A stretch of 64,000 nt of DNA from an uncultured Hyphomicrobiales bacterium (GCA_964467455.1 CAYXQJ010000017.1:6520-70519); one strand, 5' to 3'; numbered from the stretch's first letter, positions 4,252-7,911 are shown. Numbers and translations are program-made. Notes: generated by a model not told the origin, from the letters alone.

Positions 4252-5682
4252 TCAGTTTGGGGCTGGTGCCTGGGTGGGTGGCGTGCCCGTACCGAGCGCC
4301 CCTTCCACCCACTGCTCGACTTCGGTTTTCACGCGGCCGGCAGCGGCTTCGGCGGCATCCTTCTCGGCCTTCCGCTTCTCGAACCACGCGACGAAGCGCA
4401 GGTAGCCGGAGTGGGTGAGCTGGTTGCCCGACTGCACGCCCGCTTTCGCCAGTAGTTCCTTCCACGTTTCAGTGGGCACTTGCAGCGAGGCGAGCCACGA
4501 CTTGAGGTTGTCGATCTCGTGCTGAGTGATCGGCGGATCGGCGGGTGTAGCAGTGGCAGGGGGCGGTGGTGCAGCCGCGGGTGCCGGTTCGGTGCCAGGT
4601 GCGCCCGTGGGAACCGTGGATGCCGGTTCGGGCAAGGGCGTAGCCGCTACCGTGATCGGTGCAGCCGGATTGGCCGCCGTTGCCACCGTCGCACGCTCGA
4701 CTTGCTGGGCCTGCCGCCCCTGCAGTTCCCGTCGCCGCATCTCCCCTTCCACCGACAATGCCGGCTGGTTCGACTCGCTAAAGTCGCCTACTTCTTCCGG
4801 CGTGTAATAGCCAGCATTCACGCCCGGGGCGATCGTGCGCACACCGTCGCTCACTGCTCGAGCCCAGAGCATTTGCATCCGGCCGCGCGGCGTGGCGTAC
4901 GTCGGTTTGAGATTCCCGTTCTGATCCTTCGTCCAAGGTTCATCCTTGATCTCGGCCCATGTCACTTCCGACATGTACTCGCGGGCCTTCCCCCTGCCGC
5001 GCTTGATCGACAGTCGAATGGCCGCCTTCTCCGGCGAGCGTTCGACAATATCAAACTCGCCGCCGATGGCCTCGAACTGGGCCAGCATCGCCGCCGACTT
5101 CATCGACAGCTTGCCGCCGATGATGTCATAGGTGCGAATCAGATCGAACGGCGACTTCTTCTCGCAGAAGCAGGCAAGCGCGAGCACGGTTCCCTGCTGC
5201 GGTTCCTTGCAGCCGAACATCCGCGCGTTGTAAAACGCCAGGCCGAGCTTCGCCACGGCATCGAGCGGATCGACGAACCGATCCCACACCGTCAGGGAAT
5301 TCATCGACGGATCGTGCTGCATCGTGGCCAGGGCCGTGCTGTTGCTGGGGGTGAGATCGGTGAGAGTGCCGTCGTCGGTGTCGGCGGCGGCGGTAGGTGC
5401 GTCCGTAGCCATCGTGGCGTTCCTTCCGTTCTTGCTAGTGGTGCGTGAGGGTTTCGATTGGAGTCGTGTTCGGATTGCCGCTTCGTCGGCGTCAGTGAGC
5501 GTGCGGCCGCGCCAGTCGTCCGGGTAGGTGCAGGAGAGTACGCGGAGATCGGCTGGCGGGACGTGGTAAAGGCGTTTGCGGCACGGGCAGTTCTTCGCGG
5601 CGGTGGCTTTCAAGTCGAGCGGGCATGACGGGAGGATGCTGCTGGCGAGGATCTGGGATGTTGAGTAGTGGCAAAGGATCAT
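4252..5682 (-). CDS. single-strand annealing protein, Red-beta/RecT-like
   Basis: PRGRMQMLWARAVSDGVRTIAPGVNAGYYTPEE resembles the Bet/RecT motif (P.RML..KA...R.AF....GIY..DE). Start taken at the ATG at 5682-5680, which overlaps the upstream stop as ATGA. The N-terminal 90 codons have coding-like C-rich third positions. Alternative start: ATG at 5412 (MATDAPT). Confidence 0.7.
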   Translation of the reverse strand: MILCHYSTSQILASSILPSCPLDLKATAAKNCPCRKRLYHVPPADLRVLSCTYPDDWRGRTLTDADEAAIRTRLQSKPSRTTSKNGRNATMATDAPTAAADTDDGTLTDLTPSNSTALATMQHDPSMNSLTVWDRFVDPLDAVAKLGLAFYNARMFGCKEPQQGTVLALACFCEKKSPFDLIRTYDIIGGKLSMKSAAMLAQFEAIGGEFDIVERSPEKAAIRLSIKRGRGKAREYMSEVTWAEIKDEPWTKDQNGNLKPTYATPRGRMQMLWARAVSDGVRTIAPGVNAGYYTPEEVGDFSESNQPALSVEGEMRRRELQGRQAQQVERATVATAANPAAPITVAATPLPEPASTVPTGAPGTEPAPAAAPPPPATATPADPPITQHEIDNLKSWLASLQVPTETWKELLAKAGVQSGNQLTHSGYLRFVAWFEKRKAEKDAAEAAAGRVKTEVEQWVEGALGTGTPPTQAPAPN

Positions 5683-5903
5683 TCTTCGGCCAGCAATTGC
5701 TCGGCGACTTCGGCAATTGCCCACCAGTCGCTCGACTTCATCGTCACCGATATCTCACAATTGGCTTGGTTGAGAGACGAGCATGCCGCCGCCTGAAACG
5801 CCCGTTCAGCGAAAATCACAACATCCGGCGGAGCCACTTCACGCTTCTGTTTCAGCAGCCGATCCCACTGCTTCACCTTCGTCATGCTTGGCTTTTTGGC
5901 CAT
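5679..5903 (-). CDS. hypothetical protein (74 aa)
   Basis: ATG at 5903-5901 with AGGAG 7 nt upstream. Stop overlaps the next start (ATGA). Confidence 0.55.
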   Translation of the reverse strand: MAKKPSMTKVKQWDRLLKQKREVAPPDVVIFAERAFQAAACSSLNQANCEISVTMKSSDWWAIAEVAEQLLAEE

Positions 5904-6069: not shown

Positions 6070-6636
6070 TCAGTTCTCGTCGGCTTCGTTCTCGAGTTCC
6101 AAGTCACCGACGTACTTCATCAAGTCACCACCTTCGGCAACGTCTTGGATTGCAGCCTTGGCTCGCAATACCGCACGCTCGGCATGCGACAGCGTTTCCC
6201 TGGCTGCTTCCTCAATGCACTCGGCTAGGGACTCGCGCATCCAATTGCTTGCGTATCGGGTGCGATATGCGTAAGTGCGGCCTTTATCGTGACACGGAAT
6301 AACTATTGTTTTTTCGCCGTTCGCGGTAACTATGTAGCGAGATATTCCGGTCTCAATGTCTCCAGACCACAGTGAATCTCCGATTTTTAGGTTCGGAAAT
6401 ACCTTGTCGTCTTCATCCACGGACATACTACAGTCGCGCCTTTGGCTTTCCTCTACCGCCCCCATGTGAAACACGAACTGATTGAAGCGGTCGATCAGTT
6501 CCATCACGGCAACGGCCATGATCTGGCTGTTGTCGTCAATAAGCGCCTGGTCAGCTTCTTCTTTGGTGGAAAACGTCTGCCCCCACTCCTCGCTGACTAT
6601 TCGCCGAAGCGTTTCCCTAAATGTGAATAGCTTCAT
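6070..6636 (-). CDS. hypothetical protein (188 aa), in a visibly AT-richer segment
   Basis: ATG at 6636-6634 (MKLFTFRETL) with AGGAGAGG upstream, 9 nt after the exonuclease stop. The longer tracked ORF overlaps the exonuclease gene and is rejected. Confidence 0.6.
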   Translation of the reverse strand: MKLFTFRETLRRIVSEEWGQTFSTKEEADQALIDDNSQIMAVAVMELIDRFNQFVFHMGAVEESQRRDCSMSVDEDDKVFPNLKIGDSLWSGDIETGISRYIVTANGEKTIVIPCHDKGRTYAYRTRYASNWMRESLAECIEEAARETLSHAERAVLRAKAAIQDVAEGGDLMKYVGDLELENEADEN

Positions 6637-6644
6637 ATCCTCTC

Positions 6645-7697
6645 CTAACAAAACAACCCCGTCATCTTCCGACGAATCCCGCGCACCACTTCCACATCGC
6701 TCTCGCAGTACACCCCAACCTGCTCGGGATCGCTTTCGTACAGCTCCTGAACCTTGCTGCCATCGACGTCGCCGGCCGGCACGGGCACGCCGAGTAGCCG
6801 CGCAACGTCCTTCATCTTGCCGGGCCGATCCTTGCTCGTGTTCCCACGCCCGCCGAACAGTGCGAGATAAATATCCAGCACGTCGCCGCCCCACGGCTTC
6901 ATGTCGATCAGTCGCGTAGGTGGCACGCCGAGAATCATCGATCGCGTGAACAGCACAGGCAGATCGAAGCCGATCACGTTGAACCCGCACAGCGGTTTGC
7001 AGTTCGTCACCAACAGCCAGAATGCATCGAGAATGTCGGCCTCGGTGGCACCATCCAGGCCGACGACGATTGAATGCGGATCCTCATCGCCCGTGGCGTA
7101 GGCGAACGCACAGATCGAGCAGTACAGCGGTGTCGTGCTGAGCAGCTTGCGGCGATCGTCATCGAGCGCAACTAGTCGCTCGCTCTCGCCCAGCCACTCG
7201 TCGATCAGATCGAAGATGCCTTTTCGCTTCTGCCGGCCATCCTCTGCGGCGCGAAGTGCAACCCACCATTCATCAGGCGGGCACACGTCGGCCACGATCT
7301 TCTTGATGTCCGCGATCGGCTTCGCGAGAAGTTCGTCGGGCGCCGGGCATGCTGCCAGTTCGGCCCGCGGCTTCGCCCCTTCGATCTCCGGCAGGTTGAA
7401 CAGGTGCATGCGATCCTTGTCCGGAATCGTCTCGATGTCGAAGTAGAGCGAGCGATCACCCCTACCCCTACCCGTCCCCGTCTTCCGGTTCGTCGATGTC
7501 GATGCGGCGGCCGGCGCGTCGGTAGCCACTGCCGAGACTTCTGTTCTGCTTGGGCTTTGGCTTTGGTCCCCAGGGGCCTCCACTGCCATTCCCATCTCCG
7601 TCAGCGAAACGTCGGAGCCGTCCAGCGTCCACTCCTCCGTCGCCGTCGGTTCCGTCGTTGTCGTGGGTTGGGATGGGCCTGCCGGTACGTCGCTCAT
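6645..7697 (-). CDS. DnaQ-fold 3'-5' exonuclease, PolB-exonuclease-like
   Basis: Exo motifs SLYFDIET, GFNVIGFDLPVL and YCESDVE. ATG at 7697-7695 with GAGGAG 6 nt upstream. Confidence 0.75.
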   Translation of the reverse strand: MSDVPAGPSQPTTTTEPTATEEWTLDGSDVSLTEMGMAVEAPGDQSQSPSRTEVSAVATDAPAAASTSTNRKTGTGRGRGDRSLYFDIETIPDKDRMHLFNLPEIEGAKPRAELAACPAPDELLAKPIADIKKIVADVCPPDEWWVALRAAEDGRQKRKGIFDLIDEWLGESERLVALDDDRRKLLSTTPLYCSICAFAYATGDEDPHSIVVGLDGATEADILDAFWLLVTNCKPLCGFNVIGFDLPVLFTRSMILGVPPTRLIDMKPWGGDVLDIYLALFGGRGNTSKDRPGKMKDVARLLGVPVPAGDVDGSKVQELYESDPEQVGVYCESDVEVVRGIRRKMTGLFC

Positions 7698-7866
7698 AAA
7701 TTTCTCCTCGCCAGATCTCCACGTCGCGCGGTGCGTCGATTGCGATCCGTGCTGCTGTTTCTTCGTTCTTAGGCCGCCAGAAACCCGACAGTGATACCGT
7801 CACGTTCCGGCCGTCCTGCAATGTGATGACAGCTTCCTCGCCGATGTTGCGTTGAATAATGAGCAC
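7468..7866 (-). CDS. csrA: CsrA-like RNA-binding protein with a long low-complexity C-terminal tail
   Basis: GTG at 7866-7864 with AGGAGGG 5 nt upstream. MLIIQRNIGEEAVI...ARIAIDAPRDVEIWRGEIYERR parallels E. coli CsrA (MLILTRRVGE...[22 protein letters not shown]). The frame runs 75 codons past the conserved core and overlaps the exonuclease gene. Confidence 0.7.
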   Translation of the reverse strand: MLIIQRNIGEEAVITLQDGRNVTVSLSGFWRPKNEETAARIAIDAPRDVEIWRGEIYERRTGRPIPTHDNDGTDGDGGVDAGRLRRFADGDGNGSGGPWGPKPKPKQNRSLGSGYRRAGRRIDIDEPEDGDG

Positions 7867-7911
7867 GTAAGCCCTCCTGGCTCGAGTGAGAAACCACCTC
7901 CCTGCGGATCG

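What the first reader, a model, noticed from the sequence alone, without database searches (positions are those of the whole stretch)
7468..7866. Phage CsrA homologue whose frame runs 230 nt into the exonuclease gene
The first 60 residues align residue-for-residue in order with CsrA (MLIIQRNIGE ... IAIDAPRDVEIWRGEIY) and have a strong SD. Canonical CsrA ends a few residues after this point.

Here the exonuclease ATG at 7697, with its own GAGGAG SD, sits inside the CsrA REEIY-equivalent codons. The CsrA frame then continues 75 more codons to 7468. No alternative in-frame start for the exonuclease exists downstream of 7468, so at least about 128 nt (using the internal Met at 7595) and probably 230 nt are read in two frames.

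The exonuclease SD contains GGA, which is a natural CsrA target. That suggests translational coupling or autoregulation of the recombination module.
Basis: partly seen in the sequence, partly recalled or inferred. Interest (0 to 1): 0.6.

Follow-up and report, generated by a model that had tools for sequence, protein, structure and literature searches.

The report
Phage CsrA gene overlapping exonuclease gene
A phage gene for a CsrA-type RNA-binding regulator has lost its usual stop and runs 230 bases, in a different reading frame, into the start of the neighbouring exonuclease gene, and comparison with its one close relative suggests the added 75-residue tail is kept by selection.

Summary
ORF 7468-7866 (-) is a 132-aa CsrA-family protein: Pfam PF02599 scores 34 bits against a cut-off of 27, over residues 1-59. 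The exonuclease ATG at 7697 lies inside CsrA codons Y57/E58, with a GAGGAG Shine-Dalgarno (SD) site in the R53-G54-E55 codons.

One independent metagenomic relative (L003, 71% identity) has the same layout. Nine more distant phage lineages also carry a CsrA gene just upstream of this exonuclease family. Their CsrA is 60-85 aa, and the three gene-called junctions overlap by only 4-26 nt.

An acidic/aromatic motif sits at the very N-terminus of the exonuclease in 15+ relatives and at residues 21-29 here. ATG 7697 is the only usual start upstream of it, so the 230-nt overlap is real.

Between the window and L003, exonuclease four-fold sites change at 3/29 in the overlap against 35/79 elsewhere. 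dN/dS is 0.49 in the CsrA frame and 1.56 in the exonuclease frame. The tail therefore looks selected.

The tail is predicted disordered and has no homologue elsewhere, so it is probably overprinted. This rests on a single pairwise comparison.

GGA-mediated autoregulation remains untested. Classical stop-start coupling is impossible in this layout. I rate it a new variant of known kinds, of moderate interest.

The parts
7867..7911 (-). csrA leader (intergenic). It holds the SD AGGAGGG (7878-7872) and a second GGA at 7901-7899.
   Evidence: Read from the sequence. It is 41/45 identical to L003, the most conserved stretch of the locus. Leaders of related csrA genes carry 1-5 GGA motifs.
7468..7866 (-). 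CsrA-like ORF of 132 aa, with GTG start and TAG stop.
   Evidence: The relative P0001/L003 is 128 aa and 71% identical over 92% of the length.
7690..7866 (-). CsrA core domain (residues 1-59). It has MLIIQR at the N-terminus and R53, the equivalent of E. coli R44, in WRGEIY.
   Evidence: Pfam match over residues 1-59. M1, L2, R6, A45, R53 and E55 are invariant in 7 phage CsrAs. AlphaFold2 (AF2) gives pLDDT 79-90 for residues 11-50.
7468..7697 (-). 230-nt dual-frame overlap. It encodes the CsrA tail (residues 58-132) and exonuclease residues 1-77; the exonuclease frame is +1 relative to the CsrA frame.
   Evidence: The tail has pLDDT below 50. The tail has no homologue other than P0001 among 1.84 billion representatives.
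7704..7709 (-). Exonuclease SD GAGGAG, lying within CsrA codons R53-G54-E55, 6 nt before ATG 7697.
   Evidence: It is conserved in L003. The RNA around the start is less structured than shuffled sequence (z=+1.97).
6645..7697 (-). PolB-exo/DnaQ-like 3'-5' exonuclease, 350 aa.
   Evidence: PF10108 at 3.8e-13 and PF13482. PHROG 25228 and 403. The 350-aa form is the gene call on record (P0002).
7602..7637 (-). Exonuclease N-terminal acidic/aromatic motif EEWTLDGSDVSL (residues 21-32). The same bases read GGVDAGRLRRFADG in the CsrA frame.
   Evidence: The motif is found at residues about 3-20 of 15+ family members. It is identical in L003.
7431..7445 (-). Exonuclease ExoI motif YFDIE (D87, E89). 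It lies just downstream of the CsrA stop with no start codon in between.
4252..5724 (-). RecT-like annealase of the same operon (context).
   Evidence: PHROG 561 and 4171. The same gene order is seen in L006.

Best explanation
The window is most of a roughly 71-kb phage contig. Its recombination operon reads csrA-like gene, then a PolB-exo/DnaQ-like exonuclease, a small ORF and a RecT-like annealase.

In the wider phage family the csrA gene is 60-85 codons long and lies just upstream of the exonuclease. Where gene calls are on record, it stops within 4-26 nt of the exonuclease start.

In this lineage (the window plus one metagenomic relative) the csrA stop is missing. The frame continues for 75 codons through the first 230 nt of the exonuclease gene, offset by one base. 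Those bases encode the exonuclease's N-terminal docking-type motif and its low-complexity linker.

Both frames are read. The exonuclease starts independently at ATG 7697 behind its own GAGGAG. Ribosomes on csrA have no stop before 7468.

The linker tolerates change, so the new CsrA-frame tail could arise by overprinting. The tail is now the more constrained frame. It is disordered, rich in G, D, P, R and K, and has no homologue elsewhere.

Shown here: family membership of the core, the overlap, its conservation in a second assembly, and the depressed rate at exonuclease-synonymous sites.

Inferred:
- That both products are actually made.
- That the core binds GGA sites, most plausibly in its own leader and perhaps at the exonuclease SD.
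- That the tail modifies stability or partner/RNA contacts.
For: The same architecture occurs in an independent assembly, and its indels are multiples of three.

Relatives have a short CsrA and overlaps of 4-26 nt.

The exonuclease N-terminal motif is conserved family-wide, and ATG 7697 is the only ATG/GTG/TTG upstream of it. The initiation region is unstructured.

Selection evidence (window against L003):
- Flanking genes have dN/dS 0.21-0.30 and synonymous difference (pS) 0.41-0.72.
- In the overlap the exonuclease frame has dN/dS 1.56 with dS 0.18, and the CsrA frame has dN/dS 0.49 with dS 0.41.
- Four-fold sites changed: 3/29 in the exonuclease frame within the overlap, against 35/79, 21/61 and 6/20 in single-coding flanks.
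- Of the 47 differences, 21 change both proteins, 17 are silent in CsrA only and 9 are silent in the exonuclease only.
- Simulations with selection on the exonuclease frame alone reach the observed CsrA-frame value in at most 0.6% of runs.

The ungapped segments on either side of the indel give the same direction. There is no excess RNA structure in the overlap (z=+0.47).
Against: There is only one close relative, so the whole selection argument rests on 47 differences in one pairwise alignment.

The split of 17 against 9 is not significant on its own (about P=0.08, one-sided). A model neutral in both frames reaches the observed CsrA-frame dN/dS in 5% of runs.

Openness of the frame is not remarkable by itself: P=0.15 given the exonuclease protein, and P=0.24 for staying open after 47 random changes.

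The tail is low-complexity and predicted disordered, with no recognisable domain.

There is no expression evidence.

The gene call on record for this genome omits the 132-aa ORF.
Confidence: 0.58

Rival explanations
1. The tail is an accidental read-through. The csrA stop was lost, the G+C-rich exonuclease 5' region happens to lack stops in that frame, and the 75 extra residues are tolerated junk. The similarity to L003 then reflects shared ancestry plus constraint from the exonuclease frame and its initiation region.
For: The frame stays open by chance in 15% of synonymous resamplings and in 24% of simulations with 47 random substitutions. The tail is disordered and has no homologues. The neutral-neutral model is only marginally rejected on dN/dS (P about 0.05).
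Against: Exonuclease four-fold sites change at 3/29 in the overlap against 62/160 in the flanks. Total divergence is 0.216 against a synonymous difference of 0.41-0.72 nearby. The dip extends 230 nt, far beyond a start-codon effect. The exonuclease frame shows the signature of a non-selected frame (dN/dS 1.56), which is the opposite of what this rival predicts.
Confidence: 0.22
2. The exonuclease really starts at an internal codon (ATG 7589 or 7595, GTG 7583 or 7529). On this reading only 62-128 nt are dual-coding, and the first 100 nt after 7697 belong to CsrA alone.
For: These starts exist in frame. ATG 7589 has a GGAG 6 nt upstream. The gene caller for L003 chose an even later start.
Against: The family-wide N-terminal motif (EEWTLDGSD, residues 21-29) lies upstream of all of them and is identical in L003. 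The internal starts are not conserved in position in L003. The ATG and GAGGAG are conserved and lie in an unstructured region. The L003 gene call deletes the catalytic DxE motif, so it is wrong.
Confidence: 0.08
3. The depressed synonymous rate reflects a nucleic-acid element in the exonuclease 5' region rather than selection on the tail protein. Candidates are a cluster of CsrA-binding GGA sites, another RNA signal, or a DNA site.
For: GGA density is 4.8 per 100 nt in the overlap against about 2 elsewhere, and is similar in L003. CsrA proteins are known to bind GGA near initiation regions (established knowledge).
Against: There is no excess folding (z=+0.47). GGA enrichment against a composition shuffle is only P=0.06 and is absent from the exonuclease 5' ends of relatives without the tail. 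The substitution pattern is frame-specific, with CsrA-silent changes preferred.
Confidence: 0.1

Closest known systems
CsrA/RsmA family translational regulators (E. coli CsrA PDB 1y00, Yersinia CsrA 2bti, Pseudomonas RsmE 2jpp)
   Same: The core of residues 1-59 passes the Pfam threshold. It aligns end to end with the solved proteins. It keeps L2, R6 and the arginine equivalent to R44, in a WRGEIY version of HREEIY.
   Different: It is twice the usual length. It has two loop insertions of about 4 and 5 aa in the beta-sheet core. It has a 75-aa disordered tail encoded inside another gene. RNA binding and dimer formation were not tested.
Phage- and plasmid-borne CsrA homologues (PHROG 9500; Sobrero and Valverde 2020, PMC7366521: 30 of 2517 phage genomes; RsmQ of plasmid pQBR103, PMC9928087)
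   Same: It is a csrA allele carried by a mobile element. The host assembly has no chromosomal csrA apart from a second copy in another element-like context.
   Different: Its fixed position directly upstream of a recombination exonuclease, and the long out-of-frame overlap, are not features described there. I checked only the passages found with the terms 'phage', 'prophage' and 'C-terminal extension'.
CsrA proteins with C-terminal extensions (B. subtilis CsrA, whose extension binds FliW; S. meliloti plasmid pMBA19a CsrA with an extra helix), as summarised in PMC7366521
   Same: The variable region follows the REEIY helix, and extensions there can carry partner contacts or affect stability.
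   Different: Here the extension is 75 aa, non-helical in the model and unrelated in sequence. It is encoded in the alternative frame of a neighbouring gene.
Overprinted or long out-of-frame gene overlaps in phages (for example lambda Rz/Rz1 and the overlapping genes of phiX174; from general knowledge)
   Same: Two proteins are read from one stretch of DNA in different frames. The newer frame is laid over a permissive part of the older gene. Synonymous variation is depressed.
   Different: This is a 3' extension of an upstream regulator into the 5' linker of the next gene, not an embedded gene. Evidence for expression is lacking.
PolB-exo/DnaQ-like exonuclease plus single-strand annealing protein modules of phages (for example Vibrio phages with 'ribonuclease H-like domain protein | ERF superfamily protein')
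   Same: The exonuclease family and its pairing with an annealase are the same.
   Different: The cultured examples found share 24-35% identity and showed no adjacent CsrA.

Membership tests
CsrA/RsmA family (PF02599) | Profile match above the curated threshold | tested here: met
   34 bits against a 27-bit cut-off, E=2.9e-8, residues 1-59 matching profile positions 1-50 of 53. PHROG 9500 at 1.3e-5.
CsrA/RsmA family (PF02599) | RNA-binding residues: N-terminal MLxLxR (L2, R6) and the arginine equivalent to E. coli R44 in the HREEIY motif | tested here: met
   MLIIQR is present, and R53 lies in WRGEIY. L2, R6 and R53 are invariant in the 7-sequence alignment and align to the PDB chains. E. coli R7 is N7 here.
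CsrA/RsmA family (PF02599) | Small protein of about 55-85 aa forming an interlocked homodimer | tested here: inconclusive
   The length is 132 aa, outside the usual range. The monomer AF2 model gives beta strands with pLDDT 79-90 in the core. A dimer could not be modelled with the tools available.
CsrA/RsmA family (PF02599) | Binds GGA motifs in mRNA leaders or SD regions | not testable with these tools
   Only motif counts are available: 2 GGA in its own leader, 1-5 in relatives' leaders, and GGA within the exonuclease SD.
Dual-coding (out-of-frame overlapping) gene pair | Both frames open and conserved in independent sequences | tested here: met
   The window and L003 both show it, with indels of 9 and 6 nt that keep both frames.
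Dual-coding (out-of-frame overlapping) gene pair | Depressed synonymous substitution in the overlap relative to single-coding flanks | tested here: met
   Four-fold sites changed: 3/29 (exonuclease frame) and 7/29 (CsrA frame), against 35/79, 21/61 and 6/20 in the flanks. This comes from one sequence pair only.
Dual-coding (out-of-frame overlapping) gene pair | Both products are translated | not testable with these tools
Translationally coupled gene pair (termination-reinitiation) | The upstream stop lies within a few nt of the downstream start | tested here: not met
   The stop at 7468 lies 230 nt downstream of the start at 7697. Relatives L188, L189 and L190, with overlaps of 11, 26 and 4 nt, do meet this feature.

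The most novel reading that the evidence does not exclude
A CsrA-family regulator has gained a new, selectively maintained 75-residue C-terminal domain by overprinting the disordered N-terminal linker of the exonuclease it precedes. This yields a 230-nt dual-coding stretch in a dsDNA phage in which the younger frame is now more constrained than the older one. Ribosomes reading csrA must also run over the exonuclease's SD and start codon. This could tie exonuclease output inversely to CsrA synthesis, replacing the stop-start coupling seen in relatives.
Probability: 0.4. Interest if true: 0.55.

Novelty: new variant of a known kind. Interest (0 to 1): 0.4.

Why it matters
Long out-of-frame overlaps in prokaryotic and phage annotations are usually errors. 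Here the two available gene calls each dropped or truncated one partner: the CsrA ORF is absent from the record for this genome, and the exonuclease in L003 was cut to 263 aa, which removes its catalytic DxE motif.

A checked case with a datable origin is useful material for studying de novo coding sequence birth by overprinting, because relatives with the short CsrA are in hand.

The work also defines a recurrent and, as far as I found, undescribed module: a CsrA-like gene placed just upstream of a recombination exonuclease, in about ten phage lineages. This suggests post-transcriptional control of phage recombination functions.

Tried and rejected
- **Searches for more long-tailed relatives.** The word-indexed search of 5.8 billion proteins gave only P0001. 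Scans of genome contigs and viral contigs with the CsrA protein or alignment gave nothing. The first metagenome scan gave nothing. A search of 254 genomes of the same order gave only a chromosomal FliW-CsrA. The tail-only search of 1.84 billion representatives gave P0001 plus one spurious hit to a eukaryote-type TSP1-like repeat protein.
- **RNA structure as the cause of conservation.** This was rejected: z=+0.47 for the overlap.
- **GGA cluster as a CsrA target.** This is not supported. It is composition-linked and absent in relatives without the tail.
- **Programmed frameshift joining CsrA to the exonuclease.** AAATTTA at the ATG is in the wrong register for the CsrA frame (read by eye). Nothing requires a fusion, so I dropped the idea.
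- **GC3 and frame composition.** These did not discriminate between the frames.
- **Cultured phages.** No close relative was found. The only CsrA hit was Bacillus phage Dartukuta at E=5e-3.

Full report
**What is there**

On the minus strand, a GTG at 7866 opens a 132-codon ORF that ends at the TAG at 7470-7468. An AGGAGGG SD lies 5 nt upstream of the GTG.

Residues 1-59 match Pfam CsrA (PF02599) at 34 bits, above the curated 27-bit threshold (E=2.9e-8). They also match PHROG 9500 'CsrA-like regulator'. They align over their whole length with solved CsrA/RsmE proteins. L2, R6 and the arginine equivalent to E. coli R44 (R53 here, in WRGEIY) are kept. Two loop insertions account for the extra length of the core.

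The next gene, 6645-7697 (-), is a 350-aa PolB-exo/DnaQ-like 3'-5' exonuclease (PF10108 at 3.8e-13). Its ATG at 7697 lies within the CsrA Y57/E58 codons. Its GAGGAG SD (7709-7704) lies within the R53-G54-E55 codons. The exonuclease frame is offset by +1 from the CsrA frame. The overlap is 230 nt.

**Context**

The contig is 71,258 bp and 60.6% G+C, in a bin that averages 56.5%. It carries an integrase, an excisionase-like helix-turn-helix (HTH) gene, an HNH endonuclease and a RecT-like annealase. It is therefore a phage genome or prophage. The only other CsrA match in the assembly is a 66-aa gene upstream of a large ORF that looks primase-like by eye, on another contig.

**Relatives**

Only one close relative exists in the collections searched. 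P0001 is 128 aa and 71% identical over 92% of the query. It lies on a 2.4-kb Logan contig, L003. L003 has the same architecture:
- An ATG start at the homologous position.
- The exonuclease ATG and GAGGAG at the same place.
- The CsrA frame open to a stop at the same alignment column.
- Indels of 9 and 6 nt that preserve both frames.

More distant members of the exonuclease family (34-49% identity) were collected from viral, metagenome and Logan data. A CsrA-like gene lies just upstream of the exonuclease in L006/L189, L188, L190, L079, L080, L081 (two copies), L083 and, further away, L082. These CsrAs are 60-85 aa. In the three loci with gene calls on record the overlaps are 11, 26 and 4 nt. 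The csrA-exonuclease pairing is therefore ancestral, and the long overlap is specific to the window/L003 lineage.

**Where the exonuclease starts**

In 15 or more family members the protein begins with an acidic/aromatic motif. Examples are DDDWIDLSDV, EDYSLDSLDV, EHDFFLDG and GEFYLDGAD. A variable low-complexity linker of about 35-95 aa follows, and then the YFD(L/I)ET ExoI motif.

In the window the motif is EEWTLDGSD at residues 21-29, and it is identical in L003. ATG 7697 is the only ATG/GTG/TTG upstream of it.

Internal candidates (ATG 7595, ATG 7589, GTG 7583, GTG 7529) would delete the motif and are not positionally conserved in L003. No start lies between the CsrA stop and the catalytic motif.

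The RNA around ATG 7697 folds less well than 197 of 200 shuffles, as expected of an initiation region.

The best estimate of the overlap is therefore the full 230 nt.

**Is the tail more than chance?**

Openness alone is not remarkable. Resampling synonymous codons of the exonuclease keeps the CsrA frame open for 227 nt in 15% of trials. Applying 47 random substitutions leaves it open in 24%. The substitution pattern between the window and L003 is more telling.

| Region and frame | dN/dS | dS or synonymous difference (pS) | Four-fold sites changed |
|---|---|---|---|
| Flanking single-coding genes | 0.21-0.30 | pS 0.41-0.72 | 35/79, 21/61, 6/20 |
| Overlap, exonuclease frame | 1.56 | dS 0.18 | 3/29 |
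| Overlap, CsrA frame | 0.49 | dS 0.41 | 7/29 |

The exonuclease-frame values in the overlap are what the unselected alternative frames of the exonuclease body show (dN/dS 1.27 and 1.56).

Of the 47 differences, 21 change both proteins, 17 are silent only in CsrA and 9 are silent only in the exonuclease. The ungapped segments before and after the 9-nt indel give the same direction.

Simulations gave these results:
- With selection on the exonuclease frame alone, the observed CsrA-frame dN/dS is reached in at most 0.6% of runs.
- With both frames neutral, it is reached in 5% of runs.
- With selection on the CsrA frame and a neutral exonuclease linker, the observed values are typical.

Neutrality of both frames also cannot explain the low overall divergence (0.216 per site).

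There is no excess RNA structure in the overlap (z=+0.47). The GGA richness (4.8 per 100 nt) is absent from the exonuclease 5' ends of relatives without the tail.

I conclude that the tail frame is probably under purifying selection. The caveat is that this rests on one sequence pair.

**Nature of the tail**

The tail sequence is ERRTGRPIPTHDNDGTDGDGGVDAGRLRRFADGDGNGSGGPWGPKPKPKQNRSLGSGYRRAGRRIDIDEPEDGDG. AF2 models it as disordered, with pLDDT below 50, while the core reaches 79-90. It has no Pfam match. It has no homologue other than P0001 among 1.84 billion representatives.

Its first dozen or so residues correspond in position to the short hydrophilic tails of the relatives' CsrAs. The rest is laid over the ancestral exonuclease motif and linker. 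This fits origin by loss of the stop codon and overprinting of a permissive linker.

**Mechanism**

Shown: a CsrA-family core, a 230-nt out-of-frame overlap conserved in two assemblies, and frame-specific constraint.

Inferred:
- Both proteins are made.
- The exonuclease initiates independently at its own SD, because stop-start coupling is impossible with the stop 230 nt downstream.
- The CsrA core binds GGA-containing sites, most plausibly in its own conserved leader. That leader is 41/45 identical to L003 and carries two GGA motifs. It may also bind the exonuclease SD.
- The tail modulates stability or contacts.

**Comparison with what is known**

Phage and plasmid csrA alleles are documented. 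Thirty of 2517 phage genomes carry one, and C-terminal extensions are described as variable and sometimes functional (PMC7366521). Out-of-frame overlaps and overprinting are classical in phages.

Two things are new here. One is the particular combination: a CsrA with a 75-aa tail encoded inside the neighbouring exonuclease gene. The other is the recurrent csrA-exonuclease module.

Automatic gene calling fails on this locus. The 132-aa ORF is not on record for this genome. In L003 the exonuclease was truncated to 263 aa, which removes its DxE motif.

**Verdict**

It is a new variant of known kinds, of moderate interest (0.4). The main limit is that only one relative was available and there are no expression data.

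Noticed in passing
L001 1501-1701 (own genome, C26:8171-8332): A second CsrA-like gene of 66 aa and normal length lies 13 nt upstream of a large ORF (at least 483 aa) that looks primase-like by eye, on a 41.6-kb contig of 59% G+C. The assembly has no other PF02599 match, so the host may lack a chromosomal csrA.
   Followed up: partly
window 7602-7637 (-), and the N-termini of P0004-P0027: The exonuclease family shares a short acidic/aromatic N-terminal motif, roughly (D/E)(D/E)-aromatic-x-(L/F)-D-(G/S)-x-D. A variable low-complexity linker of 35-95 aa follows before the catalytic domain. It looks like a docking peptide for a partner such as the annealase or an SSB. Its function is unknown.
   Followed up: partly
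L081 1550-1804 and 2155-2355: This metagenomic phage carries two different CsrA-like genes in tandem upstream of the same exonuclease family.
   Followed up: no
L003 1251-2042; window 7468-7866: Gene callers resolve the overlap by sacrificing one gene. In L003 the exonuclease was called from an internal Met, which removes the YFDLE catalytic motif. In the window's genome the 132-aa CsrA ORF is not among the called proteins.
   Followed up: yes
own genome contig C17 (the window is C17:6520-70519): The contig is 71,258 bp and 60.6% G+C, against 56.5% for the bin. Its last 54 nt recur at 129-182. It may be a nearly complete, terminally redundant or circular phage genome that was binned with a host, rather than an integrated prophage.
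   Followed up: partly
L079 about 745-1000; L080 about 140-310: In two relatives a small extra ORF sits between csrA and the exonuclease. One looks coiled-coil-like and the other membrane-like (by eye). The junction is therefore a hot spot for gene gain.
   Followed up: no
window 6070-6636 (-) and L003 2056-2409: The small acidic ORF between the exonuclease and the annealase is conserved in L003. It has no Pfam or PHROG match.
   Followed up: no
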